A stretch of DNA of 29,353 nt from a virus (taxonomy: Duplodnaviria > Heunggongvirae > Uroviricota > Caudoviricetes), in the IMG/VR virus record IMGVR_UViG_2778261069_000009. One strand, written 5' to 3'. Below the pieces are notes generated by a model. The model was not told the DNA's origin. It made no database searches and worked only from the letters and a program-made list of their open reading frames with translations. Position numbers and translations under genes: made by a program. Positions 863 to 25,871 of this stretch are shown piece by piece; positions within the stretch are counted from its first letter, which is position 1; each line of letters starts with the position of its first letter.

Positions 863-2038
863 TTAGCTGTCTCTATATCTTTTGAGTTCATCATAATTTG
901 CCTGACTCAATTTTATCACAATTTCGCATTTGTTGTCAGTGAGAATTACAGGCTTATTTGACTTTTCGTCTCCAATAGCTCCACGCATTATTTTCAACTT
1001 AAAATTATTGTCGTTATCTGCCACTTCAATTGTAAGCGCGCTTTCAGCTGCTTTAGGAGTTGGTTCAAATTGAGGATCAATCTGGAAACCATTAAGATTA
1101 ACAAAATCGACAAACGTTCCCTTACATTTGTGTGAATCAGTCAGGCATGAGTCAATTATTTTTGAAATATCCTCTATCTTAACGGACTTATTTCCGTATT
1201 TATCTTTTGATTTTTTTTCCAGTAAGGATTTAACTTCATTGTCAATAGTATCACGCAGTACACGACCGAGTGAGTTTTTACTAGCAAAAATATCTATAGC
1301 ACTGAATAATTGCTGAATGCTTCTTTTATTGTCCGAATCATGTCGGCAACCTAATGAGTCTTTGAAAAAATCGCTTTTAGATTTACCTTGCAAGAAATGT
1401 ACATATGAGTCACCCTTGTTTTCTGGATAACTGGCTTCGAATAAAGTTAAATCGAACATCGCAGCCTGCCGTAAGGCATCGGTATTAATTGGATTTAATC
1501 TTGTTGGGGTCAACTTATCCGAATCAAAGTCATAGGCGCTTTGTTTATCAACCATTACGATTAGAAGTTTTCCCAAATCCTCTGGTTCGGTAGACTTATA
1601 GTGGACGAAAACAACGCTCCCCCCCTGAAGTTGGGCAACTCTCGATTCGTTATTAGCATTATGTTTAAGCTTCTCTATTATAGCTCTAGATAAATCAATG
1701 AATTCATTATTTTTATTAATGTATTTTTTTAGGATCGTAGGAATGGATGAAGGGTTGTGATCTGAGTCTAGGAAGTTATGAAATTTGTTTTTTCGGCTAA
1801 ATTTTTTCTCAATTCTGGTTATGAATTCAGATGTGACTTCATTTTTTAGATCCCAAACTTCACCTAATCGATAATCAAATGCTCTTGAATCATTTTTTTC
1901 AAGATTTGCTGTTACAGCACCAATAGGAAAGTACGATTGTTTGCCCAGCACTACAACATGAGGCGTGGCGCCGCATTTATCGCAAGCTACAGTTGGGTCG
2001 TCAAGAACATTGCCACATTCTAAACAAGTTATATCCAT
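863..2038 (-). CDS. zinc-ribbon plus NA37 (YejK/NdpA nucleoid-associated protein)-like domain protein
   Basis: 391-aa ORF in AT-rich DNA. N-terminus has CxxC-10-CxxC (CLECG...CDKCG). Central region aligns by eye with remembered E. coli YejK motifs: GGSVVFVHY then LLIVMVD, later YVHFLQGKSKSDFFKDSLG (YejK: [37 protein letters not shown]). Domain call rests on recall, not a search. Confidence 0.65.
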   Translation of the reverse strand: MDITCLECGNVLDDPTVACDKCGATPHVVVLGKQSYFPIGAVTANLEKNDSRAFDYRLGEVWDLKNEVTSEFITRIEKKFSRKNKFHNFLDSDHNPSSIPTILKKYINKNNEFIDLSRAIIEKLKHNANNESRVAQLQGGSVVFVHYKSTEPEDLGKLLIVMVDKQSAYDFDSDKLTPTRLNPINTDALRQAAMFDLTLFEASYPENKGDSYVHFLQGKSKSDFFKDSLGCRHDSDNKRSIQQLFSAIDIFASKNSLGRVLRDTIDNEVKSLLEKKSKDKYGNKSVKIEDISKIIDSCLTDSHKCKGTFVDFVNLNGFQIDPQFEPTPKAAESALTIEVADNDNNFKLKIMRGAIGDEKSNKPVILTDNKCEIVIKLSQANYDELKRYRDS

Positions 2039-3136: not shown

Positions 3137-3500
3137 GCTGGCTATCTCTGCATTCATCTTTACTGTCATCGGTTCTTTCATCTGGTCTGCCAACCACTAC
3201 TACAGCAAATATCAGCACGAAAAGAAACGTGCTGATGAGGCTGTACAAAATGCTGAATCTGCAACAGCCATTACCCGTAACGTCCTGCAATCACTGCAAA
3301 TCGTCAATACAGTTATAGAGGTTAACCAGCATGCAAAACAGCAGATCGCACTGGAGTCACAGAGAACCCAGAAAGATATCAAAGTGGCTGTTGCGGATGA
3401 TGATTGTGCTGCACGCCTTGTGCCTGCTGCCGCTGCTGAGCGGTTGCGGAAGTACGCGGACAGTTTACGTGAGCACTCCGGCTACAACATTACCGACTAG
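3120..3500 (+). CDS. Rz-like i-spanin
   Basis: N-terminal TM segment (LAISAFIFTVIGSFIW) followed by a charged periplasmic region; position directly after the endolysin, overlapping its end. Confidence 0.7.
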   Translation: MKLSYKLAISAFIFTVIGSFIWSANHYYSKYQHEKKRADEAVQNAESATAITRNVLQSLQIVNTVIEVNQHAKQQIALESQRTQKDIKVAVADDDCAARLVPAAAAERLRKYADSLREHSGYNITD

Positions 3501-3654
3501 TCTGACTTCTGAAACACCTGTACCGTTCATACCAAATCCTCTGACGTATGGTGCCAGCCTGGAGCTGAATGTGAGTCTGTTGTCTGCACTGGCTAACTGC
3601 AATCGGGATAAAGCTGATATTCGTAAAATAGATGCAGAGAGAACTAACCATTAA
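3397..3654 (+). CDS. Rz1-like o-spanin lipoprotein (in +1 frame, overlapping Rz)
   Basis: Internal Met-Met start at 3397, then signal MMIVLHALCLLPLLSGC with lipobox LSGC and a Pro/Thr-rich mature part; frame is +1 relative to Rz; extends 154 nt past the Rz stop. ORF track start at 3331 is probably too far upstream. Confidence 0.65.
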   Translation: MMIVLHALCLLPLLSGCGSTRTVYVSTPATTLPTSLTSETPVPFIPNPLTYGASLELNVSLLSALANCNRDKADIRKIDAERTNH

Positions 3655-3675
3655 GCAATAAAATTGTCAAATTGA

Positions 3676-4302
3676 TCAGTTGTCAAATGAATATACGTTA
3701 AAGGTATATGTCGACATAATTTCACCAAGTACCTCAATACATATACTTTTTTTATGAAAATTACTGGGAAATGAACTTAGCTCTTCAAGGTATTGCACAT
3801 AAGTGCTGATATCACTTGCATCACGTTCAAGGAATTTCACTTGGCCAAAAGAAGGAGTATTAATCCTGGTTCTTTGCTGGATTATATGGATAAAATGTGT
3901 AGTTGGTGAAACTATTACTCTTGAAATATCGGAAATGATGTCTTCTTGAACTTGCCGATAAAGTAAATCCTTTGGGTAATGGTGTTTTATCTCGATGGTT
4001 GCAACATTGCCATTATGTTCAGACGTTAATATCGACTGGTTATAAAGTGATATGTCAACAGCGCCGATACCGAGTTTTGGATGCTCACTTAAAGCAGTTA
4101 GTGTGCTGATTTGATTGAGTATAACAACTAACTCATCACGTATTTGTGTTTCATGTTTGCGATTGTAGAAGTAGCCATTCAGTTCATTTAACTTTTTATG
4201 CATCCTATCGTGACTAATTGCTTCGATCAGTAAATCCTGAATCATACTTTTCTCTAGGTAATCCGAACGGTTGTAAGTGACAGTATTGTGCTGGCATGTC
4301 AT
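3676..4302 (-). CDS. hypothetical protein (accessory moron gene)
   Basis: 208-aa ORF in AT-rich DNA opposite to phage late transcription; alternative start at Met20 (4245); no family recognised. Confidence 0.6.
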   Translation of the reverse strand: MTCQHNTVTYNRSDYLEKSMIQDLLIEAISHDRMHKKLNELNGYFYNRKHETQIRDELVVILNQISTLTALSEHPKLGIGAVDISLYNQSILTSEHNGNVATIEIKHHYPKDLLYRQVQEDIISDISRVIVSPTTHFIHIIQQRTRINTPSFGQVKFLERDASDISTYVQYLEELSSFPSNFHKKSICIEVLGEIMSTYTFNVYSFDN

Positions 4303-4345
4303 TAATATGTAAAGGTATTGTGAATACCAGAAAGATAACGAAGTA

Positions 4346-4681
4346 TCATCGATAGAAAAACTTTACAGCCCACTCGTAAACAGCTTTGTAAATCGGTTCA
4401 TGGTAAATACTATCGATACTATTCAGATGTGCGATCATCGCCTCCACAGTTGTAGTGGTTGTTTCTAATATTTCGATTATTGCAGGGCGGTCATCATCTT
4501 CATCGAAGTATTCGAACAGCAGTACAGGTTTACCATGCCATTCAGCATCTGAGACTCTAAGGTTACAACTACCGCTCAACTCAAAGTGAATTTTGTAATT
4601 ACCTTCTACAGAATGGCCTACGGGGAAAAAGTATAGGGTGTCATCTTTGTTCAAAAGCCATTCCCATTCATAACTATTCAT
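4346..4681 (-). CDS. hypothetical small acidic protein (accessory moron gene)
   Basis: Start moved to the second ATG (4681), which has AGGAG 7 nt upstream on the minus strand; 111 aa; contains EYFDEDDDRP and a TTTT run; no family recognised. Confidence 0.55.
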   Translation of the reverse strand: MNSYEWEWLLNKDDTLYFFPVGHSVEGNYKIHFELSGSCNLRVSDAEWHGKPVLLFEYFDEDDDRPAIIEILETTTTTVEAMIAHLNSIDSIYHEPIYKAVYEWAVKFFYR

Positions 4682-4831
4682 TTGTGAACTCCTGTTCATT
4701 GAGTTTCAACAACTATCAACTACATCCAGCGAAGCATAAAAGATCGTTTATGGCAAAACCGGAATGGAGTGCGATTCGATTCTGAGAAGGATGCCACGTA
4801 TCGTACGCGAACCATCCAAGAGGATTATGCA

Positions 4832-5182
4832 ATGCCCCTACGAACCCCAAAAGCCTGCCGTGTTCGCGGCTGCCGCCATACCACTACTGACCCGTCAGGC
4901 TACTGCGAAAGCCACAAAAGCGAAGGCTGGAAGCAATACAAGCCAGGCCAGTCCCGACACCAGCGCGGTTATGGTTCGAAATGGGATGTTATCCGTGAAC
5001 GTGTGCTCAAGCGTGACAAAGGCCTGTGCCAGTTGTGCCTGCGTGCTGGTGTGGTGCGCGAGGCGAAAACCGTTGACCACATCATCCCTAAAGCGCATGG
5101 CGGCACTGATGCCGACTGTAATCTGCAGAGTCTGTGCTGGCCGTGTCATAAGGCGAAGACGGCCCGTGAACGGTTGAAGTGA
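4832..5182 (+). CDS. HNH endonuclease (terminase-associated)
   Basis: CxxC zinc knuckle (CRVRGC), DHIIPKAHGG, NLQSLCWPCH motifs; AAGAGGA RBS before ATG 4832; directly upstream of the terminase genes. Confidence 0.85.
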   Translation: MPLRTPKACRVRGCRHTTTDPSGYCESHKSEGWKQYKPGQSRHQRGYGSKWDVIRERVLKRDKGLCQLCLRAGVVREAKTVDHIIPKAHGGTDADCNLQSLCWPCHKAKTARERLK

Positions 5183-5201
5183 TAATAATTCTCAACTGCC
5201 T

Positions 5202-5268
5202 GAGGGGAGGGGCGGGTCAAATCCCTGCGGCCTGACGTCTTCCGGACTGCCCGCCCCATCGTTTTTTT
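5202..5268. other. GC-rich palindromic region, candidate cos / packaging site
   Basis: GGGGCGGG (5209-5216) and CCCGCCCC (5250-5257) flank a core with GACGTC at its centre, followed by a T7 run (5262-5268); sits between the HNH gene and the small terminase gene. Confidence 0.3.
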
Positions 5269-5307
5269 ATACCCGCGAAAAATGAAATTTAACCAGGAGT
5301 GCCGCAT

Positions 5308-5802
5308 ATGGCTGGAACGGCGGGGCGTTCCGGGCGTCGCCCCAAGCCAACGGCGCGCAAGGCGCTGGCCGGAAACCCCGGCAAGCGAGCCCTGAATAAA
5401 GATGAACCTGTTTTTACGCCCATCAAAGGTGTTGAGCCACCGGAGTGGTTCGCTGAAGAAGATCTCCCTCTCGCCACGATCATGTGGCAACTGACAACCA
5501 AAGAACTCTGCGGTCAGGGCCTGCTGTGCGTGACTGACCTCGCGGTGCTTGAGCGGTGGTGTGTGGCCTATGAGTTCTGGCGACGTGCCGTGAAAAATAT
5601 TGCCAGACAGGGCAACACCATCACCGGTGCAATGGGCGGTATGGTCAAAAATCCGGAGCTGACCGCCAAAAAAGAACAGGAGTCCGAGATGAGCAGTACG
5701 GGGGCAATGCTCGGACTCGACCCCAGCAGCCGCCAGCGTCTGATTGGCCTGGCGGGGCAGAAGAAAGCCACTAACCCGTTTCTGAAAATTATCGAATCAT
5801 GA
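5308..5802 (+). CDS. terminase small subunit
   Basis: Basic N-terminus ([22 protein letters not shown]); AGGAG RBS before ATG 5308; ATGA overlap with the large subunit start. Confidence 0.8.
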
Positions 5803-7532
5803 GCCGGAAATCTTACCCCAACGTAAATGCTGCCAATCAGTATGCCCGTGATGTCGTGCGCGGAAAGATTGTGGCCTGCCAGTTTGTGATTCAGGCCTGC
5901 CAGCGCCATCTTGATGACCTGATGGCGGAAAAAAGTAAGTCGTTTCGTTACCGCTTCGACAAGGACCTGGCTGAACGGGCCGCCAAATTTATTCAGCTGT
6001 TGCCGCACACCAAGGGTGAGTGGGCATTCAAGAGGATGCCCATCACGCTGGAGCCGTGGCAGCTCTTTGTGATCTGCTGCGCGTTTGGCTGGGTCAATAA
6101 AGGCTCCCGGCTGCGCCGCTTCCGTGAGGTGTATACCGAAATCCCCCGTAAGAACGGCAAATCGGCAATCTCTGCCGGTGTCGCCCTGTATTGTTTTGCC
6201 TGTGATAACGAGTTCGGCGCGGAAGTGTATTCCGGTGCCACGACGGAGAAACAGGCATGGGAAGTCTTTCGTCCGGCAAGACTGATGTGTAAACGCACAC
6301 CCATGCTGACGGAAGCGTTCGGGATTGAGGTTAACGCCTCAAACATGAACCGTCCGGAGGATGGTGCGCGTTTTGAACCGCTGATCGGTAACCCCGGTGA
6401 TGGTTCATCACCCCACTGTGCGGTGGTGGATGAATATCACGAGCACGCCACAGATGCGCTTTACACCACGATGCTTACCGGGATGGGGGCGCGACGTCAG
6501 CCACTGATGTGGGCCATCACCACCGCCGGGTACAACATTGAGGGGCCGTGCTACGACAAGCGGCGGGAAGTCATCGAGATGCTCAACGGCTCGGTGCCTA
6601 ACGATGAACTGTTCGGGATCATCTATACCGTTGATGAAGGTGACGACTGGACCGACCCGCAGGTGCTGGAAAAAGCCAATCCAAATATTGGCGTGTCGGT
6701 TTATCGCGAATTTTTGTTAAGTCAGCAGCAGCGTGCGAAAAATAACGCCCGTCTGGCAAACGTCTTTAAAACAAAACACCTCAATATCTGGGTGTCGGCG
6801 CGTTCGGCGTATTTCAACCTGGTGAGCTGGCAGAGCTGCGAGGATAAATCACTGACCCTTGAGCAGTTCGAGGGGCAGCCGTGCATTCTGGCCTTTGACC
6901 TGGCGCGTAAGCTGGATATGAACAGCATGGCGCGACTTTATACCCGCGAGATTGACGGTAAAACGCATTACTACAGTGTGGCCCCGCGTTTCTGGGTACC
7001 GTATGACACGGTGTACAGCGTCGAGAAAAATGAAGATCGACGGACAGCCGAACGCTTTCAGAAATGGGTGGAAATGGGCGTTCTGACCGTTACCGATGGT
7101 GCGGAGGTGGATTATCGCTACATCCTCGAGGAGGCCAAAGCGGCGAACAAAATCAGCCCGGTCAGTGAGTCACCCATCGACCCCTTCGGGGCGACCGGGT
7201 TGTCACATGACCTTGCTGATGAAGACCTGAACCCCATCACTATCATTCAGAACTACACCAACATGTCCGACCCGATGAAAGAGCTGGAAGCGGCAATTGA
7301 ATCGGGGCGCTTTCATCATGATGGCAATCCCATCATGACCTGGTGTATCGGCAACGTGGTCGGCAAAACTATTCCGGGTAACGATGATGTGGTGAAGCCC
7401 GTCAAAGAGCAGGCGGAAAACAAAATTGACGGTGCAGTTGCGCTGATTATGGCGGTTGGCAGAGCCATGCTGTACGAGAAAGAAGACACGCTGTCTGACC
7501 ACATTGAGTCCTATGGGATCCGCTCGCTTTAA
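5799..7532 (+). CDS. terminase large subunit
   Basis: 577 aa; position after the small subunit; nuclease-type acidic motifs in the C-terminal half; start overlaps the small-subunit stop. Confidence 0.9.
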
Positions 7533-7543
7533 CTGAGGTAATT

Positions 7544-7726
7544 ATGATCATGCTGATTCTCGCGCCTCTGGTGGGCGTGCTGGGTGCGCTTTTGCTGGCG
7601 TATGGTGCCTGGCTGATTTATCCCCCGGCGGGGTTTGTTGTTGCCGGGGCGTTGTGTCTGTTCTGGTCGTGGCTGGTGGCGCGATATCTCGACCGTACAC
7701 AGCTGTCTGATGGTGGAGGTAAATAG
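7544..7726 (+). CDS. small membrane protein, two predicted TM helices
   Basis: 60 aa, [26 protein letters not shown] and [15 protein letters not shown]; GAGG RBS 5 nt before the ATG; lies between terminase and portal. Confidence 0.45.
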
Positions 7727-8967
7727 TGTTCTTTTCGGGATTATTTCAACGAAAAAGTGACGCACCGGTGACCACGCCAGCAGAGCTGGCGGATGCTATC
7801 GGGTTGTCCTACGACACCTATACCGGAAAGCAGATCAGCAGTCAGCGGGCCATGCGACTGACGGCGGTTTTTTCCTGCGTCAGGGTGCTGGCGGAGTCGG
7901 TCGGGATGTTGCCCTGCAACCTGTATCACCTGAATGGCAGTCTGAAGCAGAGAGCCACTGGCGAACGTCTGCATAAGCTGATCTCCTCGCATCCTAATGG
8001 CTATATGACGCCGCAGGAGTTCTGGGAGCTGGTGGTCACCTGTCTGTGCCTGCGGGGCAACTTTTACGCCTACAAAGTGAAAGCATTTGGCGAAGTGGCT
8101 GAACTGCTGCCCGTCGATCCCGGCTGTGTGGTACCGAAGCTTAACAGTAGCTGGGAGCCGGTCTATCAGGTCACATTCCCGGACGGCTCAACGGATGTGC
8201 TGACCCAGGAGGATATCTGGCATGTGCGCACGCTGACGCTGGACGGTCTGGTGGGACTGAATCCCATCGCCTATGCCCGCGAGGCAATATCGCTGGCAGC
8301 AGCGACTGAAGAGCACGGTGCCAGACTGTTCAGCAATGGCGCGGTGACGTCCGGTGTGTTGCGTACAGAGCAGACGCTGTCGGATCAGGCTTATGAGCGC
8401 CTGAAGAAAGATTTTGAGGAGCGTCACACCGGGCTTGGCAATGCTCACCGCCCGATGATCCTTGAGATGGGGCTGGACTGGAAGTCGATGGCGCTGAACG
8501 CCGAGGACAGCCAGTTCCTGGAAACCCGCAAGTTTCAGCTTGAAGAAATCTGTCGTCTGTTCCGTGTGCCCTTGCACATGGTGCAGAACACCGATCGCGC
8601 CACCTTCAACAATATCGAAGAGCTGGGGCTGGGATTTATCAACTATTCACTGGTGCCGTATCTGACCCGCATCGAACAGCGGATCAACACCGGACTGGTA
8701 CGAAAAAGTAAGCAGGGCGTTTATTACGCCAAATTTAACGCCGGGGCGTTACTGCGCGGGGATATGAAGTCCCGTTTTGAAGCCTACGCCACCGGGATTA
8801 ACTGGGGAATTTACTCTCCCAATGACTGCCGCGACCTGGAAGATATGAATCCGCGTCCCGGTGGTGATGTCTATCTCACACCGATGAACATGACCACGAA
8901 ACCCTCCGATGGCAGTAAAGCCGGTAAGCAGAAGGATAACGCCAATGCAGACGAAACAACGTCTTGA
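7726..8967 (+). CDS. portal protein (HK97 family)
   Basis: 413 aa; GTG start after GGAGG; position after the large terminase; overall resemblance to HK97-type portals. Confidence 0.85.
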   Translation: MFFSGLFQRKSDAPVTTPAELADAIGLSYDTYTGKQISSQRAMRLTAVFSCVRVLAESVGMLPCNLYHLNGSLKQRATGERLHKLISSHPNGYMTPQEFWELVVTCLCLRGNFYAYKVKAFGEVAELLPVDPGCVVPKLNSSWEPVYQVTFPDGSTDVLTQEDIWHVRTLTLDGLVGLNPIAYAREAISLAAATEEHGARLFSNGAVTSGVLRTEQTLSDQAYERLKKDFEERHTGLGNAHRPMILEMGLDWKSMALNAEDSQFLETRKFQLEEICRLFRVPLHMVQNTDRATFNNIEELGLGFINYSLVPYLTRIEQRINTGLVRKSKQGVYYAKFNAGALLRGDMKSRFEAYATGINWGIYSPNDCRDLEDMNPRPGGDVYLTPMNMTTKPSDGSKAGKQKDNANADETTS

Positions 8968-9595
8968 TGTACCGCTGAGTCTGAAATCTGTCAGTGACTC
9001 CGGTGAGTTTGAAGGGTATGGCTCCGTCTTTGGTGTAAAGGACAGCCACGATGATGTGGTGATGTCCGGGGCATTTGCTGCTTCCCTGCGGGCGTGGAGT
9101 GACAGAAAAACGTTACCTGCGCTGCTCTGGCAGCACCGCATGGATGAACCCATCGGTGTTTACACCGAAATGAAGGAAGACGATGTCGGGCTTTACGTCA
9201 GGGGACGGTTGCTCATTGATGATGATCCCCTCGCAAAACGCGCACATGCACACATGAAGGCCGGTTCGTTAACCGGCCTTTCTATTGGGTACGTCCTGAA
9301 AGACTGGGAATATGATCGGAGCAAAGAAGCCTTTCTGTTGAAAGAAATCGACCTCTGGGAAGTCAGTCTGGTGACGTTCCCGTCTAACGACGAGGCGCGG
9401 ATCAGCAACGTCAAGAACGCGCTGGCCCGCGGGGAAATCCCCGAACAGAAAAAAATCGAAAGAGTCCTGCGTGATGTCGGACTCTCCCGTACCCAGGCCA
9501 AAGCATTCATGGCCGGGGGCTATGGCGCACTGTCCCTGCGCGACGCTGAGGATGTGGGCTCTGCACTGAATGCACTTAAAAATCTGAACTTCTAA
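8945..9595 (+). CDS. prohead protease (HK97 family)
   Basis: Start placed at ATG 8945 (AGGA 8 nt upstream) rather than the ORF-track 8909; EGYGSVFGVKDSHDDVV...GLSIGY typical of this protease family; overlaps the portal end. Confidence 0.8.
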   Translation: MQTKQRLDVPLSLKSVSDSGEFEGYGSVFGVKDSHDDVVMSGAFAASLRAWSDRKTLPALLWQHRMDEPIGVYTEMKEDDVGLYVRGRLLIDDDPLAKRAHAHMKAGSLTGLSIGYVLKDWEYDRSKEAFLLKEIDLWEVSLVTFPSNDEARISNVKNALARGEIPEQKKIERVLRDVGLSRTQAKAFMAGGYGALSLRDAEDVGSALNALKNLNF

Positions 9596-9609
9596 TCAGG
9601 AGAAATACG

Positions 9610-10815
9610 ATGGCGGTTGATATTAAAGATGTGGAACAGGTCGCGCAGGAGCTGCAGCAGAAGTTTGACGACTTCAAGGCAAAGAATGACAAGCGCGTGG
9701 ATGCGATTGAGCAGGAAAAAGGCAAACTTGCCGGGCAGGTGGAAACCCTGAACGGGAAACTCAGCGAGCTGGAAAATCTCAAAAGCGACCTTGAAAAAGA
9801 GCTGCTTGAGCTGAAACGTCCGGCAGGTGGTGCGCAAAATAAACTGGCCACAGAGCACAAAGAGGCGTTTGTGGGCTTTCTGCGTAAAGGCCGTGAAGAC
9901 GGTCTGCGCGATCTGGAGCGCAAGGCATTGCAGGTGGGCACCGATGAAGACGGTGGCTATGCCGTGCCGGAAGCACTGGATCGCAACATTCTCACCCTGC
10001 TGAAAGATGAAGTGGTGATGCGCCAGGAAGCCACGGTGATCACTGTTGGCGGTTCCGACTACAAAAAACTGGTGAATCTGGGCGGCACGGCTTCCGGATG
10101 GGTGGGCGAGACTGACGCGCGCTCTCAGACTGCCACCTCAAAACTGGGACTGATTGAACCTTTCATGGGGGAAATCTACGGTAACCCGCAGGCCACCCAG
10201 AAAATGCTGGACGATGCCTTTTTCAACGTGGAGGCCTGGATCAACAGCGAGCTGGCAACCGAATTTGCCGAACAGGAAGAAATTGCCTTTACCTCCGGCG
10301 ATGGCACCAAGAAGCCAAAAGGGTTCCTGGCGTATGAATCCACTGATGAAACCGATAAGGTCCGGGCGTTCGGCAAACTTCAGCATATTGTATCCGGCGA
10401 CGCGACTGCGGTGACCGCAGACGCCATTATCAAACTGATTTACACGCTGCGAAAGGCACACCGCACTGGCGCGAAGTTCATGATGAACAACAACAGCCTG
10501 TTTGCCATCCGTCTGCTGAAAGACACCGAGGGTAATTATCTGTGGCGTCCGGGGCTGGAACTGGGGCAGCCGTCCTCTCTGGCGGGTTACGGTATCGCTG
10601 AAAACGAACAGATGCCGGATATCGCCGCTGATGCGAAAGCCATTGCATTTGGTAACTTCAAACGGGGTTACACCATCGTTGACCGTATCGGCACCCGCAT
10701 TCTGCGTGATCCGTACACCAATAAACCGTTTGTCGGTTTTTATACCACCAAGCGCACCGGCGGGATGCTGGTCGATTCGCAGGCCATCAAACTGCTGAAG
10801 ATTGCAGCGGCGTAA
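9610..10815 (+). CDS. major capsid protein (HK97 fold) with N-terminal coiled-coil delta-like region
   Basis: 401 aa; charged coiled-coil N-terminus then capsid-like body; follows the protease as in HK97-type head modules. Confidence 0.85.
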   Translation: MAVDIKDVEQVAQELQQKFDDFKAKNDKRVDAIEQEKGKLAGQVETLNGKLSELENLKSDLEKELLELKRPAGGAQNKLATEHKEAFVGFLRKGREDGLRDLERKALQVGTDEDGGYAVPEALDRNILTLLKDEVVMRQEATVITVGGSDYKKLVNLGGTASGWVGETDARSQTATSKLGLIEPFMGEIYGNPQATQKMLDDAFFNVEAWINSELATEFAEQEEIAFTSGDGTKKPKGFLAYESTDETDKVRAFGKLQHIVSGDATAVTADAIIKLIYTLRKAHRTGAKFMMNNNSLFAIRLLKDTEGNYLWRPGLELGQPSSLAGYGIAENEQMPDIAADAKAIAFGNFKRGYTIVDRIGTRILRDPYTNKPFVGFYTTKRTGGMLVDSQAIKLLKIAAA

Positions 10816-10821
10816 TCATTC

Positions 10822-22158: not shown

Positions 22159-22941
22159 ATGCATCGTATAGACACGAAAACCGCGCAGAAGGATAAGTTC
22201 GGCGCGGGTAAGAACGGTTTTACCCGTGGTAACCCCCAGACCGGCACGCCTGCCACCGATCTGGATGATGACTACTTTGACATGTTGCAGGAGGAGCTTT
22301 GCAGCGTGGTGGAGGCATCCGGTGCCAGCCTGGAGAAGGGGCGGCACGATCAGTTGCTTACCGCACTTCGCGCGCTGCTGTTAAGCCGCAATAATCCGTT
22401 TGGCGATATCAAATCGGATGGCACGGTGAAAACGGCTCTCGAAAACCTTGGTTTGGGAGAAGGTTCGGCATTACCCGTTGGAGTGCCTGTTCCGTGGCCT
22501 TCTGCCACTCCGCCAACAGGCTGGCTGAAATGCAACGGTGCGGCATTTTCTGCTGAAGAATACCCGGAACTGGCAAAGGCTTATCCGGCAAATAAATTAC
22601 CTGATTTACGCGGTGAGTTTATTCGTGGCTGGGATGACGGGCGTGGAGCTGACAGTGGTCGGGGATTATTAAGCTTTCAAAAAGCCACTCTGGTTGAAAG
22701 TTTTGGTCTGGTCAGATCACCAACCACTGGCTCTTATCGTCTGGTTACCAGACCGACAGAAACTGTTTCTGATAATACGTCTAACTATATGACGACTGAT
22801 TATGATTCCCGTGAAGGTCTATATTCCCCTGCAACAGCATACCCCTCTATCGAATTGCCACCAACTGGAGCAGGCGCAGGGGCTGGTTTTAGGGTTCGAC
22901 CAAGGAATATTGCATTTAACTATATTGTGAGGGCTGCATAA
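22159..22941 (+). CDS. tail fibre protein: constant N-terminus (to about codon 96) joined to the variable C-terminal segment Sv
   Basis: 260 aa; the left crossover site lies inside the gene at the codons for ENLGLGE; the C-terminal part is lower in GC. Confidence 0.8.
22436..22461. repeat. left crossover site of the invertible segment (26-bp, gix/pix-like)
   Basis: CTCTCGAAAACCTTGGTTTGGGAGAA; its inner 14 nt TTGGTTTGGGAGAA are the exact reverse complement of 24296-24309; the 26-mer is itself an imperfect palindrome. Confidence 0.65.
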
Positions 22942-23543
22942 TGGATAACGCCATATTAAATAGCGAGATTATCGCCACCAAAGCAGGGAATATTACAGTA
23001 TATAACTATGATAGTGAAACCCGGGAATATATTTCCACTTCAAATGAATATCTTGCTGTGGGTGTCGGTATTCCTGCATGTTCCTGTTTAGATGCACCAG
23101 GCACATATAAGGCTGGTTATGCTATCTGCCGTTCGATGGATTTAAACTCATGGGAATATGTGCCAGACCATCGCGGTGAAATCGTCTATAACACCGAAAC
23201 GGGAGACGCCAAAGAAATCACAACTCCGGGTGATTACCCCGAAAAAACAACCACTATCGCCCCGTTAACGCCATACGATAAATGGGATGGTGAGAAATGG
23301 GTGACGGATACCGAGGCACAGCATAGCGCCGCAGTAGACGCGGCAGAAGCACAACGTCAGTCACTGATTGATACTGCAATGGCTTCCATTAGTCTGATTC
23401 AACTGAAATCGCAGGCCGGACGGAAGTTGACGCAGGCAGAAACAACCCGACTTAACGCCGTGCTGGATTACATTGACGCGGTGACGGTAACAGATACCAG
23501 CACCGCGCCGGATGTCATCTGGCCTGAACTGCCGGAGGCGTAG
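22941..23543 (+). CDS. tail fibre assembly protein (Tfa)
   Basis: 200 aa; ATAATG overlap with the fibre gene; C-terminus DTSTAPDVIWPELPEA is shared with the convergent Tfa'. Confidence 0.8.
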   Translation: MDNAILNSEIIATKAGNITVYNYDSETREYISTSNEYLAVGVGIPACSCLDAPGTYKAGYAICRSMDLNSWEYVPDHRGEIVYNTETGDAKEITTPGDYPEKTTTIAPLTPYDKWDGEKWVTDTEAQHSAAVDAAEAQRQSLIDTAMASISLIQLKSQAGRKLTQAETTRLNAVLDYIDAVTVTDTSTAPDVIWPELPEA

Positions 23544-23958
23544 GCCATTCAATATCTGGAGCACTGGAAGTATCGACCAGTTCCAGTGCGTCCAGATAAT
23601 CCAGCCACAAATTATATTGCGCCAGTTCCTCACCTTTCAGACGACCAATAGCGGCTTTACCGGGCCATTGCTTACTGTTCATGTGTTCGTTGGCCTGATT
23701 AAGCAATAATTTTCTTTCTGATTCTGCCTGTTGAATAAGTTCTTCATGTGATGGTTGAGGTATTTCAGCCCATGTGGGAAAACCATTTACCCCTGCAACT
23801 CGGATTTTCCCTTGTGGCGGTTCCGCTATATATTTTACAAAAATGTTATCAGGAATATCTAATGCATCAGCGGGCCATGTTCCATTTACTTCATAAGTAT
23901 TTTTTAAATTAACAGCATAAAATGCATTTTCCGAAGGGGAATAAATATATTGATTCAT
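23515..23958 (-). CDS. alternative tail fibre assembly protein (Tfa')
   Basis: 147 aa; C-terminus DTSSAPDIEWPTPP parallels Tfa; 3' ends of the two Tfa genes overlap by 29 bp. Confidence 0.75.
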   Translation of the reverse strand: MNQYIYSPSENAFYAVNLKNTYEVNGTWPADALDIPDNIFVKYIAEPPQGKIRVAGVNGFPTWAEIPQPSHEELIQQAESERKLLLNQANEHMNSKQWPGKAAIGRLKGEELAQYNLWLDYLDALELVDTSSAPDIEWPTPPAVQAR

Positions 23959-23959
23959 A

Positions 23960-24310
23960 TTATCTTCCTATTGCGATAATCATAGTTCCATACAAACCAT
24001 TTCCGGTTGATACTTTTAAGGTTACTGATGTCCTTGTTGTCGTGTACCCCATAAGTTTAAAGGTCGGAGCAGCCGTTAATGTGCCATCAGACCATAAGGC
24101 ACTAACAGCCAGTGCACCTGAAGGAAATGCAATAGGGAAATTACCAGTAGTTCCGTTAGTGTCCGCCCCATAAACATTCATCGAAAACATTTGAACAATA
24201 TGACCACTTGGTAACTGAAACCAGTTTTTGCCAGATGGAAATGCAGACATATCTGGTTTCTGATTTTCTCCTGTTCCCACATTCCGTTTTGCCGCTTCTC
24301 CCAAACCAAC
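23960..24310 (-). CDS. alternative tail fibre C-terminal segment (Sv'), no start codon of its own
   Basis: The minus-strand frame is open from the right crossover site; the codons for VGLGE at the site match the plus-strand LGLGE codons at the left site, so inversion fuses this segment in frame to the constant N-terminus. The ORF-track start at 24349 lies outside the segment and is an artefact. Confidence 0.7.
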   Translation of the reverse strand, partial: VGLGEAAKRNVGTGENQKPDMSAFPSGKNWFQLPSGHIVQMFSMNVYGADTNGTTGNFPIAFPSGALAVSALWSDGTLTAAPTFKLMGYTTTRTSVTLKVSTGNGLYGTMIIAIGR

Positions 24311-24321
24311 GTTTATGAAAA
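24296..24321. repeat. right crossover site of the invertible segment (26-bp, gix/pix-like)
   Basis: TTCTCCCAAACCAACGTTTATGAAAA; inverted relative to 22436-22461 with 20 of 26 matches and an identical inner 14-mer. Confidence 0.65.
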
Positions 24322-24376
24322 TGCAGAAATAACGGCTAACTGGCATCATCTCTGGTTTTTATTCAGAGGGATGATC

Positions 24377-24931
24377 ATGCTTATTGGCTATGTACGCGTG
24401 TCAACAAATGACCAGAACACCGATTTGCAACGTAATGCACTGAACTGCGCGGGATGTGAGCGGATTTTTGAGGATAAAATCAGTGGAACTAAGTCCGACA
24501 GACCAGGACTGAAAAAACTGCTCAGGACATTATTGGCAGGTGACACGCTGGTGGTCTGGAAACTGGACCGACTGGGGCGCAGTATGCGGCATCTTGTCGT
24601 GCTGGTGGAGGAGTTGCGCGAACGAGGCATTAACTTTCGTAGTCTGACGGATTCAATTGATACCAGTACCCCAATGGGGCGCTTTTTTTTTCATGTGATG
24701 GGTGCCCTGGCTGAAATGGAGCGTGAACTGATTGTTGAACGAACAAAAGCTGGACTGGAAGCTGCTCGCGCACAGGGACGAATTGGTGGACGTCGTCCCA
24801 AACTTACACCAGAACAATGGGAACAGGCCGGACGATTAATTGCATCAGGAGTTCCTCGCCAGAAGGTGGCGATCATCTATGATGTTGGTGTGTCAACTTT
24901 GTATAAGATGTTTCCTGCAGGGGATAAATAA
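24377..24931 (+). CDS. pin: serine DNA invertase (Pin/Gin/Hin family)
   Basis: MLIGYVRVSTNDQNTDLQ with the catalytic Ser, GDTLVVWKLDRLGRS, RFFFHVMGALAEMEREL and a C-terminal HTH; near-identical to e14 Pin as remembered. Start placed at ATG 24377 because the AGAGGG RBS abuts the first ATG at 24371. Confidence 0.95.
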   Translation: MLIGYVRVSTNDQNTDLQRNALNCAGCERIFEDKISGTKSDRPGLKKLLRTLLAGDTLVVWKLDRLGRSMRHLVVLVEELRERGINFRSLTDSIDTSTPMGRFFFHVMGALAEMERELIVERTKAGLEAARAQGRIGGRRPKLTPEQWEQAGRLIASGVPRQKVAIIYDVGVSTLYKMFPAGDK

Positions 24932-25037: not shown

Positions 25038-25871
25038 ATGCATGTTTTTGATAATAATGGAATTGAACTGAAAGCTGAGTGTTTGATAGGTGAAGAGGAT
25101 GGTGTTTATGGTCTAATCCTTGAGTCGTGGGGGCCGGGTGACAGAAACAAAGATTACAATATCGCTCTTGATTATATCATTGAACGGTTGGTTGATTCTG
25201 GTGTATCCCAAGTCGTAGTATATCTGGCGTCATCATCAGTCAGAAAACATATGCATTCTTTGGATGAAAGAAAAATCCATCCTGGTGAATATTTTACTTT
25301 GATTGGTAATAGCCCCCGCGATATACGCTTGAAGATGTGTGGTTATCAGGCTTATTTTAGTCGTACGGGGAGAAAGGAAATTCCTTCCGGCAATAGAACG
25401 AAACGAATATTGATAAATGTTCCAGGTATTTATAGTGACAGTTTTTGGGTGTCTATAATACGTGGAGAACTATCAGAGCTTTCTCAGCCTACAGATGATG
25501 AATCGCTTCTGAATATGAGGGTTAGTAAATTAATTAAGAAAACGTTGAGTCAGCCCGAGGGCTCCAGGAAACCAGTTGAGGTAGAAAGACTACAAAAAGT
25601 TTATGTCCGAGATCCGATGGTAAAAGCTTGGATTTTACAGCAAAGTAAAGGTATATGTGAAAACTGTGGTAAAAATGCTCCGTTTTATTTAAATGATGGA
25701 AGCCCATACTTGGAAGTGCATCATGTAATTCCCCTGTCTTCAGGTGGTGCTGATACAACAGATAACTGTGTTGCCCTTTGTCCGAATTGCCATAGAGAAT
25801 TGCACTATAGTAAAAATGCAAAAGAACTAATCGAGATGCTTTACGTTAATATAAATCGATTACAGAAATAA
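25038..25871 (+). CDS. mcrA: McrA, modified-cytosine-specific (type IV) restriction endonuclease with C-terminal HNH
   Basis: 277 aa beginning MHVFDNNGIELKAEC; C-terminal CENCG...HHVIPLSSGGADTTDNCVALCPNCH HNH motif; matches remembered E. coli K-12 McrA over essentially the whole length; AT-rich gene at the prophage end as in e14. Confidence 0.93.
   Translation: MHVFDNNGIELKAECLIGEEDGVYGLILESWGPGDRNKDYNIALDYIIERLVDSGVSQVVVYLASSSVRKHMHSLDERKIHPGEYFTLIGNSPRDIRLKMCGYQAYFSRTGRKEIPSGNRTKRILINVPGIYSDSFWVSIIRGELSELSQPTDDESLLNMRVSKLIKKTLSQPEGSRKPVEVERLQKVYVRDPMVKAWILQQSKGICENCGKNAPFYLNDGSPYLEVHHVIPLSSGGADTTDNCVALCPNCHRELHYSKNAKELIEMLYVNINRLQK

What the first reader, a model, noticed from the sequence alone, without database searches (positions are those of the whole stretch)
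3676..4699. Second AT-rich two-gene cassette at the bor-equivalent position, oriented against late transcription
Between Rz1 and the HNH/terminase genes, where lambda carries bor, two AT-rich minus-strand genes (111 aa acidic, then 189-208 aa) are separated by 43 bp. Neither product matches a family I recognise. The small acidic protein followed by a larger one is compatible with an antitoxin/toxin or sensor/effector pair. The opposite orientation to the late operon suggests expression from the prophage state, as expected for lysogenic-conversion or defence genes.
Basis: partly seen in the sequence, partly recalled or inferred. Interest (0 to 1): 0.7.

Follow-up and report, generated by a model that had tools for sequence, protein, structure and literature searches.

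The report
Two independent prophage cargo genes, one nuclease
The two AT-rich genes are real, but they are separate cargo genes stacked in a variable slot of an E. coli prophage rather than a toxin–antitoxin pair; the larger one is an unannotated restriction-enzyme-like nuclease that probably defends against other phages, and the smaller one has no known function.

Summary
Two minus-strand genes lie between Rz1 and HNH/TerS of an e14-like E. coli prophage. The conserved starts give 189 aa (3676-4245) and 111 aa (4346-4681). GC is 37%, against 49-56% in the flanks. Both are under purifying selection and match PHROG families of unknown function.

The pairing idea fails. Across 110 related loci the two genes co-occur only in one E. 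coli lineage that is at least 96% identical. Every diverged homologue of either gene sits alone in the same slot, antisense to late genes, next to unrelated terminases. In E. coli itself the 189-aa gene stays intact where the small gene has been replaced.

The 111-aa acidic protein has no informative match.

The slot is a cargo hotspot. Verdict: ordinary prophage cargo genes ("morons"), with a new family of a known kind; moderate interest.

The parts
3676..4245 (-). Gene for a 189-aa stand-alone PD-(D/E)xK (type II restriction-endonuclease-fold) nuclease, called 'BIG' in this report (PGAP WP_053897784; phrog_12494). Putative catalytic residues are E32, D64, E85 and K87.
4246..4345 (-). 100-bp spacer between the two genes. 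It holds a promoter-like TTTACA-17-CACAAT (4313-4285) and a weak ribosome-binding site for the nuclease gene, and it travels with the nuclease gene.
   Evidence: Hexamers found, but not above chance. The same roughly 100 bp is retained upstream of the nuclease gene in L073/L074, where the small gene is absent; the homology breakpoint is at window 4371.
4346..4681 (-). Gene for a 111-aa acidic cytoplasmic protein of unknown function, called 'SMALL' in this report (PGAP WP_053897783; phrog_14397).
4750..4785 (+). Relic of the 5' end of a foreign small-terminase gene (MAKPEWSAIRF*). It marks the edge of the imported SMALL module.
   Evidence: Exact match. The intact terS start ATGGCAAAACCGGAYTGG is the divergent neighbour of SMALL or BIG in 16 other loci. 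The window phage itself uses HNH plus a P27-type TerS.
3624..4831 (.). Variable cargo slot (hotspot) between the 3' end of Rz1 and the start of the HNH gene.
   Evidence: Homology to prophages with other cargo ends at about 3614-3623 and resumes at 4747-4833. The empty allele has 26 bp between Rz1 and HNH. Alternative cargos are listed.
3331..3654 (+). Rz1/LysC-type spanin gene, the left flank of the slot and last gene of the lysis cassette.
4832..5182 (+). HNH endonuclease gene, which precedes the P27-type TerS and forms the right flank of the slot.
   Evidence: Pfam HNH 7.7e-15. PGAP start.

Best explanation
These are two unrelated single-gene cargo genes ('morons'), each acquired separately and stacked by recombination in the cargo hotspot between the lysis cassette and the packaging genes of an e14-like E. 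coli prophage. They do not form an obligate two-gene system. The 189-aa gene encodes a small, soluble, stand-alone nuclease of the PD-(D/E)xK (type II restriction-endonuclease) fold from an unannotated family. It most likely cleaves incoming phage or other foreign DNA in the lysogen, acting alone and without a methyltransferase. How it spares host DNA is unknown. The 111-aa gene encodes an acidic cytoplasmic protein that acts independently of the nuclease. Its most likely mode is binding a protein or nucleic-acid target in a phage-competition or conversion role, but that is a guess.

Shown here: gene reality, independence of the two genes, hotspot nature of the slot, fold, and invariant catalytic residues. 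Inferred: nuclease activity, a defence role, and expression from the prophage.
For: Independence of the two genes. Among 110 loci, both genes occur together only in the E. coli lineage that is at least 96% identical. All BIG homologues of 50-72% identity (Enterobacter, Yersinia, Klebsiella, Citrobacter and a group of IMG/VR viral contigs at about 50% identity) lack SMALL. All SMALL homologues of 63-74% identity lack BIG. In L073/L074 BIG is intact with dN/dS 0.14, while SMALL is replaced by a 151-aa membrane-protein gene. A third small gene precedes BIG in Enterobacter but precedes SMALL in L051. A relic of a foreign terS start marks the edge of the SMALL module.

Hotspot. Each gene always lies between Rz/Rz1 and the packaging genes, antisense, next to four different TerS types. 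In E. coli, 1397 of 5426 genomes match at least part of the 2.4-kb slot-plus-flank query but only 76 carry this cassette. Other alleles are empty or hold a 64-aa gene, ClpP plus a 182-aa gene, DUF6236 or GrlR.

Defence context. Distant relatives are embedded in type I R-M operons beside other accessory nucleases (L119, L120). Others lie next to a WYL regulator with YAcAr, cREC and PDDEXK_4 genes (L117), next to a GHKL ATPase (L121), next to HipA and a DEAD helicase (L122), or on a Rep3 plasmid (L123). The same prophage carries a DS-1-type nucleoid-associated anti-phage gene (NF053868, 450 bits against a cut-off of 330) and full-length McrA in its other AT-rich cargo positions.
Confidence: 0.55

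Rival explanations
1. One reading: the two genes form a functional pair, either a type II toxin-antitoxin system or a sensor/effector system, in which the acidic 111-aa protein neutralises or controls the 189-aa nuclease.
For: In the E. coli lineage the genes are adjacent and co-oriented, and no terminator was detected between them. The hairpins that follow SMALL in other phages are missing here. A small acidic protein upstream of a nuclease is a common antitoxin-toxin layout. 73 of 83 matching E. coli records carry both genes.
Against: The two genes do not co-occur outside one near-identical lineage. Diverged homologues of each gene are always alone. BIG is intact and under purifying selection without SMALL in E. 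coli L073/L074, and with SMALL truncated in L053/L070. It also occurs alone in Enterobacter (246 contigs for P0012), Yersinia, Klebsiella and Citrobacter. SMALL has no DNA-binding or antitoxin domain.
Confidence: 0.07
2. The 189-aa protein is a selfish, free-standing homing-type endonuclease. It cuts the empty slot of related phages and is copied in by repair, which would explain its fixed position.
For: It occupies the same intergenic position in otherwise unrelated lambdoid phages. Its distribution is sporadic, 76 of 1397 E. coli genomes with matching flanks. A conserved terS 5' 18-mer lies next to it in many loci. PD-(D/E)xK homing endonucleases exist (I-Ssp6803I; own knowledge).
Against: SMALL, which is not a nuclease, and several other cargos show the same positional behaviour, so the slot itself explains the position. 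The flanks differ: four TerS types and several lysis cassettes. In BIG-bearing alleles the terS 5' sequence is intact, so no split target is evident. The gene is antisense to the late operon. Distant relatives sit in chromosomal R-M or defence islands and on a plasmid, not in phage intergenic sites.
Confidence: 0.1
3. The 189-aa protein is a phage housekeeping nuclease used in lytic growth. It could be a structure-specific resolvase (Hjc/RecU-like) or a host-DNA degrading enzyme.
Against: The gene is antisense to late transcription, AT-rich and sporadic. Most prophages with the same flanks lack it, including an allele with an empty slot. A close relative of this prophage already encodes RusA. 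No isolated phage among 50,697 genomes encodes it. Relatives occur in non-phage defence islands.
Confidence: 0.08
4. Neither gene is a defence gene. Both are lysogenic-conversion or regulatory cargo affecting host physiology, and the nuclease fold serves mainly for DNA binding, or its activity is directed at the host's own nucleic acids for regulation.
For: The same slot carries GrlR-family, ClpP and DUF6236 genes, which are not classical defence genes. Lambda's bor in this position is a serum-resistance factor (own knowledge). There is no hit in PADLOC or NCBIfam.
Against: Strict invariance of exactly the catalytic residues across 18-39% identity argues for retained catalysis. Distant relatives are placed inside R-M operons. 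Defence genes occupy this prophage's other cargo slots.
Confidence: 0.15

Closest known systems
Type II restriction endonucleases of the EcoRV-like branch of the PD-(D/E)xK superfamily (SwaI, BglI, MspI, ThaI, EcoRV, HincII, NlaIV)
   Different: There is no detectable sequence similarity to any solved REase, and Foldseek finds no match. No cognate methyltransferase lies next to the gene in any of the roughly 20 contexts examined. It is therefore not an R-M system as defined.
Pfam PDDEXK_4 (PF14281) and other accessory PD-(D/E)xK nucleases embedded in type I R-M operons or defence islands
   Same: Five of 47 family members hit PDDEXK_4 weakly (best 3.9e-5), and one relative carries a precomputed PF14281 hit. 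Distant relatives lie in the same hsdS-hsdR accessory positions as PDDEXK_4 genes.
   Different: The window protein and most relatives do not reach any threshold. The profile-profile comparison was not significant. PDDEXK_4 proteins in those loci are about twice as long (378-421 aa).
Single-gene PD-(D/E)xK defence systems validated by DefensePredictor (DS-n series; PMC13092281) and Shedu SduA
   Same: The concept is the same: a nuclease of this fold that defends without a methyltransferase and is often found in E. coli accessory or prophage DNA. The paper reports 13-14 validated PD-(D/E)xK systems. One relative hits SduA at 1e-5.
   Different: No NCBIfam model, a library that includes at least one DS-series model (NF053868), hits any of 47 family members. 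Neither the accessions nor conserved peptides occur in the held supplementary tables, some of which were truncated when stored. The protein has no extra sensor or regulatory domain.
Lambda bor and other lambdoid cargo genes ('morons') such as lom and HK97 gp15
   Same: The genomic position is the same (after Rz/Rz1, before cos/terminase) and the orientation is antisense. The base composition is atypical, and the genes are present or absent between otherwise collinear phages. The bor facts are from own knowledge.
   Different: There is no similarity to Bor. Neither protein has a predicted transmembrane segment (highest 19-residue Kyte-Doolittle hydropathy below 1). The products are a nuclease-fold protein and an acidic soluble protein.

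Membership tests
PD-(D/E)xK nuclease superfamily | Alpha-beta-beta-beta-alpha-beta core fold | tested here: met
PD-(D/E)xK nuclease superfamily | Catalytic E (helix), D (start of beta2) and (D/E)-x-K (beta3), conserved across the family | tested here: met
   E32, D64, E85 and K87, plus K30, are the only invariant columns in 32 sequences. They remain invariant in 47 sequences at 18-39% identity.
PD-(D/E)xK nuclease superfamily | Significant profile match to a superfamily model | tested here: inconclusive
   The window protein has no hit. Relatives hit PDDEXK_4 in 5 of 47 cases (best 3.9e-5), and PDDEXK_7, PDDEXK_9 and HSDR_N once each. hhalign against three PDDEXK_4 proteins gave E 0.38.
PD-(D/E)xK nuclease superfamily | Metal-dependent phosphodiester cleavage | not testable with these tools
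   Needs biochemistry.
Type II restriction-modification system | Cognate DNA methyltransferase encoded next to the endonuclease | tested here: not met
   No methyltransferase lies next to the gene in the window, in L001, or in any lambdoid or distant locus. The only methyltransferases nearby are type I HsdM genes with their own HsdR, and an unlinked D12 methyltransferase in Yersinia.
Type IV (modification-dependent) restriction enzyme | A domain that reads modified bases (SRA, McrA-N, McrB-N, YTH/ASCH-like) joined to the nuclease | tested here: not met
   The protein is single-domain and 189 aa long, and no extra Pfam domain was found. The C-terminal helix and beta-hairpin (147-187) gave no separate match. 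Dependence on modified DNA cannot be tested here.
Type II toxin-antitoxin pair | The two genes are inherited together across relatives | tested here: not met
   They co-occur only in one E. coli lineage that is at least 96% identical. About 30 diverged BIG loci lack SMALL and about 17 diverged SMALL loci lack BIG.
Type II toxin-antitoxin pair | The toxin cannot be kept without the antitoxin | tested here: not met
   BIG is intact without SMALL in E. coli L073/L074 (dN/dS 0.14), and in Enterobacter, Yersinia, Klebsiella and Citrobacter. This evidence is indirect because toxicity was not measured.
Phage moron (Hendrix/Juhala sense) | An insertion between genes that are adjacent in related phages, with deviant base composition | tested here: met
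   The empty allele has 26 bp between Rz1 and HNH. GC is 0.37 against 0.49-0.56 in the window, and homologues are AT-rich relative to every host locus.
Phage moron (Hendrix/Juhala sense) | Own promoter and terminator, and expression from the repressed prophage | tested here: inconclusive
   Promoter-like and terminator-like sites do not exceed chance. BIG keeps its own 100-bp upstream region when SMALL is absent. Expression cannot be tested here.
Lambda Bor family | Sequence membership of the Bor lipoprotein family | tested here: not met
   There is no Pfam hit to Bor for either protein. Neither has a strongly hydrophobic 19-residue segment (highest Kyte-Doolittle value below 1).
Catalogued anti-phage defence systems (PADLOC v2, NCBIfam 2026 including at least one DS-series model) | A match to any catalogued defence-protein model | tested here: not met
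   Neither protein has a hit. None of 47 family members hits NCBIfam. PADLOC gives only stray weak hits for relatives.
Free-standing homing endonuclease | A conserved target site at the insertion point in alleles lacking the gene | tested here: not met
   The flanking genes differ between carriers, with four TerS families and several lysis cassettes. Non-nuclease cargos use the same slot. Cleavage specificity cannot be tested here.

The most novel reading that the evidence does not exclude
The 189-aa protein founds a family of minimal, methyltransferase-independent restriction nucleases that tell self from non-self by an undescribed route. Candidate routes are reliance on host Dam/Dcm methylation, so that under-methylated, fast-replicating phage DNA is cut, or recognition of phage-specific DNA modifications or replication structures. 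In addition, the 111-aa acidic protein could be a new stand-alone inter-phage competition or anti-defence factor, for example a DNA mimic. The lysis-terminase junction would then be a general, minable defence hotspot of lambdoid prophages, comparable to the P2/P4 hotspots.
Probability: 0.15. Interest if true: 0.6.

Novelty: new member of a known kind. Interest (0 to 1): 0.35.

Why it matters
If the 189-aa protein defends, it adds a very small single-gene nuclease family to the defence repertoire. It has 42 representatives among 1.84 billion protein clusters and no annotation anywhere. It would also pose a clean question: how does a 189-aa restriction-fold enzyme with no methyltransferase and no sensor domain avoid cutting its host?

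More generally, the analysis shows that the Rz1-terminase junction of lambdoid prophages is a modular cargo hotspot. Genes are swapped there one at a time, which is useful for mining candidate defence and conversion genes.

It is also a caution. Adjacency of a small acidic gene and a larger gene in one lineage is not evidence of a toxin-antitoxin pair.

Tried and rejected
1. DNA (megablast) and protein (tblastn) searches of 50,697 isolated phage genomes found no match for either gene.

2. Profile searches of PDB sequences with three alignments of the nuclease family found nothing.

3. The small protein gave a weak PDB sequence hit to the CPR-C4 protease (7ob6, E 0.08). I rejected it because it is not significant and the small protein has no conserved Cys or His at the catalytic positions.

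5. Foldseek of the nuclease model against the PDB found no significant hit. The afdb50 library was unavailable.

6. hhalign of the family against three PDDEXK_4 neighbour proteins was not significant.

7. I tested whether the 182-aa gene that accompanies ClpP in the same E. coli slot (L113) is a cryptic relative of the nuclease. It is not.

8. I searched the DefensePredictor main text and 12 supplementary files for the accessions and for conserved peptides and found none. Five of those files were truncated when stored.

9. Full-text search for the WP accessions and PHROG ids returned no papers.

10. Promoter and terminator scans of the window and three related loci were all at chance level.

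The close alignment found only two more species, Yersinia frederiksenii and a Citrobacter sp..

Full report
**What is there**

The window is the late region of an e14-like E. coli prophage. From left to right it holds:
- an AT-rich block with a minus-strand 391-aa gene;
- the lysis genes: holin, GH104 endolysin and Rz/Rz1;
- the two minus-strand genes of the finding;
- HNH, a P27-type TerS, TerL, portal and an HK97-type head;
- an invertible tail-fibre segment with a Pin-like invertase, then McrA.

A close relative additionally shows sheathed-tail genes and an upstream ymfK/ymfT/ymfL immunity region with Q.

The two genes are real.
- The ORFs run 3676-4302 and 4346-4699.
- The starts conserved in all homologues, and used by PGAP, give 189 aa (3676-4245) and 111 aa (4346-4681). 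The spacer is then 100 bp rather than 43 bp.
- GC of the slot is 0.366, against 0.491 for the lysis genes and 0.555 for the packaging genes.
- Both match PHROG families of unknown function over their full length.
- Both show strong purifying selection. Non-synonymous divergence is 0.15-0.23 with synonymous sites saturated, and dN/dS is 0.14-0.17 where measurable.
- Nothing reaches reporting thresholds in Pfam, PADLOC or NCBIfam.
- Every database copy is labelled 'hypothetical protein'.

**The pair is not a unit**

I collected 110 loci that encode a homologue of either protein. They came from E. coli genomes, NCBI, ENA and Logan assemblies, IMG/VR and GTDB genomes. I scored each for both genes by tblastn.
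- The two genes occur together only in E. coli loci where both are at least 96% identical to the window.
- Every diverged homologue of the large gene lacks the small gene. These are 50-72% identical and come from Enterobacter, Yersinia, Klebsiella, Citrobacter and a group of IMG/VR viral contigs at about 50% identity.
- Every diverged homologue of the small gene (63-74% identical) lacks the large gene.
- Within E. coli, L073/L074 have the large gene intact while the small gene is replaced. The breakpoint is 25 nt inside its 3' end, and the replacement is an AT-rich 151-aa membrane-protein gene on the other strand.
- L053/L070 have a truncated small gene next to an intact large gene.
- L039-41 keep the small gene next to a large gene cut at codon 38.
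- A third small gene (72-77 aa) precedes the large gene in Enterobacter but precedes the small gene in L051.

This pattern is incompatible with an obligate toxin-antitoxin or sensor-effector pair. It also shows that the nuclease-fold protein is tolerated alone.

**The slot is a hotspot**

In every locus either gene lies between the Rz/Rz1 end of the lysis cassette and the packaging genes, antisense to them. This holds although the neighbouring TerS is of four different kinds (P27, Terminase_2, Sf6-type, DUF2280) and the lysis genes differ.

In complete E. coli genomes, 1397 of 5426 match at least part of a 2.4-kb query spanning the slot and both flanks. Only 76 carry this cassette. Other alleles hold:
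- nothing, with 26 bp between Rz1 and HNH;
- a 64-aa gene;
- ClpP plus a 182-aa gene;
- a DUF6236 gene;
- a GrlR-family gene.

Homology with those alleles ends at about 3620 and resumes at 4747-4833.

Upstream of the small gene the window keeps a 36-nt relic of a foreign terS start (4750-4785, MAKPEWSAIRF*). The intact version of that 18-mer is the divergent neighbour of these genes in 16 other loci, including loci with different TerS families. The small-gene module was therefore imported by recombination from another lambdoid phage. The large gene brings its own 100-bp upstream region, which L073 retains without the small gene.

**What the large protein is**

The close family is narrow, being limited to Enterobacterales at 60% identity or more. 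An exhaustive profile search of 1.84 billion cluster representatives found only 42 proteins at E <= 0.001.
- Structure. An AlphaFold2 model built on the family alignment is confident (pLDDT 84, pTM 0.84). It has the alpha-beta-beta-beta-alpha-beta core of PD-(D/E)xK nucleases.
- Conservation. In an alignment of 32 representatives down to 19% identity, only K30, E32, D64, E85 and K87 are invariant. In 47 sequences at 18-39% identity the invariant set is N28, K30, E32, R36, E54, D64, E85 and K87.
- Placement. E32 lies in the first core helix, D64 at the start of beta2, and E85-x-K87 in beta3. That is the canonical catalytic arrangement.
- Weak sequence links. Relatives hit PDDEXK_4 (5 of 47, best 3.9e-5), PDDEXK_7, PDDEXK_9, HSDR_N and Shedu SduA.

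There are caveats. Foldseek against the PDB found nothing significant. The window protein itself hits no model. A profile-profile test against three PDDEXK_4 proteins was not significant. I put the fold assignment at about 0.8.

**What it probably does**

No methyltransferase lies next to the gene in any context, so it is not a type II R-M system. No modified-base reader domain is present, so type IV membership is not shown.

Distant relatives are not in phages. They lie in accessory, defence-type settings:
- two are embedded in type I R-M operons beside other accessory nucleases (L119: X-HsdM-HsdS-PDDEXK_4-HsdR; L120: HsdM-HsdS-..-X-REase-ARP/PDDEXK_13-PDDEXK_4-HsdR);
- one lies beside a WYL regulator with YAcAr, RNase T, PDDEXK_4 and cREC genes;
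- one lies beside a GHKL ATPase;
- one lies beside HipA and a DEAD helicase;
- one is on a Rep3 plasmid;
- one, in Acinetobacter and fused to DUF6508, sits among housekeeping genes.

This prophage's other AT-rich cargo positions hold known defence genes. One is a YejK-type nucleoid-associated anti-phage protein (NF053868, 450 bits against a cut-off of 330). The YejK domain class was validated in PMC13092281. The other is full-length McrA.

The best-supported reading is a stand-alone nuclease, made in the lysogen, that attacks incoming foreign DNA. The catalytic step is inferred from conservation. The defence role is inferred from context. The means of sparing host DNA is unknown.

Rivals are listed with their tests: a homing-type selfish nuclease, a lytic-cycle resolvase, non-defence conversion cargo, and the original pair model.

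**What the small protein is**

In other phages it is a single gene divergent from terS, about 67 bp away. Hairpins follow it there but are missing in the window. Its function remains open. I can only say that it acts independently of the nuclease.

**Novelty and verdict**

The genes are unannotated. They are absent from PADLOC v2, from NCBIfam 2026 (which includes at least one DS-series model), from the held DefensePredictor tables and from 50,697 isolated phage genomes.

Conceptually this is ordinary lambdoid 'moron' biology. A PD-(D/E)xK nuclease is also the commonest kind of newly found defence protein.

I rate it as a new member of a known kind, with interest 0.35. The defence or conversion idea is plausible, and the pair idea is not supported.

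Noticed in passing
window 863-2038 (-): The 391-aa gene in the AT-rich block between Q and the holin passes NCBIfam's curated cut-off for NF053868 'DS1_1 nucleoid-associated anti-phage protein' (450 bits against 330). It has an N-terminal zinc ribbon plus a YejK/NA37 domain. The closest E. coli relative, L001, carries two different hypothetical minus-strand genes in that slot, so the Q-holin junction is a second cargo hotspot.
   Followed up: partly
window 25038-25871 (+): This is full-length McrA, the type IV 5-methylcytosine-specific HNH restriction enzyme (E 3.6e-188 to PDB 6ghc). It is AT-rich and lies just after the invertase, as in e14.
   Followed up: yes
window 22941-24931: An invertible tail-fibre segment. 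It has two oppositely oriented tail-fibre assembly genes and a Gp53-like fibre C-terminus, next to a Pin/Gin-type serine invertase at 24371-24931.
   Followed up: partly
window 4750-4785 (+); L007, L009-L014, L044-L049, L091, L092, L110: The same 18-mer, ATGGCAAAACCGGAYTGG (MAKPDW), begins terS genes that Pfam assigns to different families (Terminase_2 and Sf6-type). It survives as a dead relic in the window. It may be a conserved linker where lambdoid modules and cargo recombine.
   Followed up: partly
L039-L041 / L106-L108 (IMG/VR E. coli prophage contigs): The nuclease gene is cut after codon 38. About 0.9 kb of other DNA follows, then a TerL fragment and a second TerS-HNH copy before Rz1. 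This is a tandem or hybrid rearrangement at the slot.
   Followed up: partly
L073/L074 4369-4824 (opposite strand to the nuclease gene): An AT-rich (GC 0.33) 151-aa predicted membrane protein replaces the small gene in these E. coli prophages. It is another uncharacterised cargo gene for this slot.
   Followed up: no
L007/L092 (Klebsiella) 6949-7650; L113 (E. coli) 983-1543: A ClpP-family protease gene is recurrent cargo in the same lysis-terminase slot. It is paired with the nuclease homologue in Klebsiella, and with an unrelated 182-aa gene in E. coli.
   Followed up: partly
L009-L015, about 40-90 nt after the small-gene stop: Two conserved hairpins follow the small gene in other phages. The second (GCCGCC-TTCG-GGCGGT plus a T-run) is oriented to stop transcripts arriving from the lysis side. 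It could shield the cargo gene from antisense read-through in lysogens. Both are absent from the window.
   Followed up: no
L006 (Yersinia enterocolitica) 8281-10816 and 4539-5659: This prophage carries a 501-aa unknown gene plus a D12-class adenine methyltransferase in its Q-holin slot. It also has Mom and ParB_N genes between the nuclease homologue and TerS.
   Followed up: no
P0138, P0139, P0143-P0145, P0150, P0156; L116 (P0143, Acinetobacter halotolerans): In several relatives of about 284-316 aa the nuclease domain is joined to DUF6508 (PF20118). At least P0143 and P0156 are from Acinetobacter. This would give that domain of unknown function a nuclease partner.
   Followed up: no
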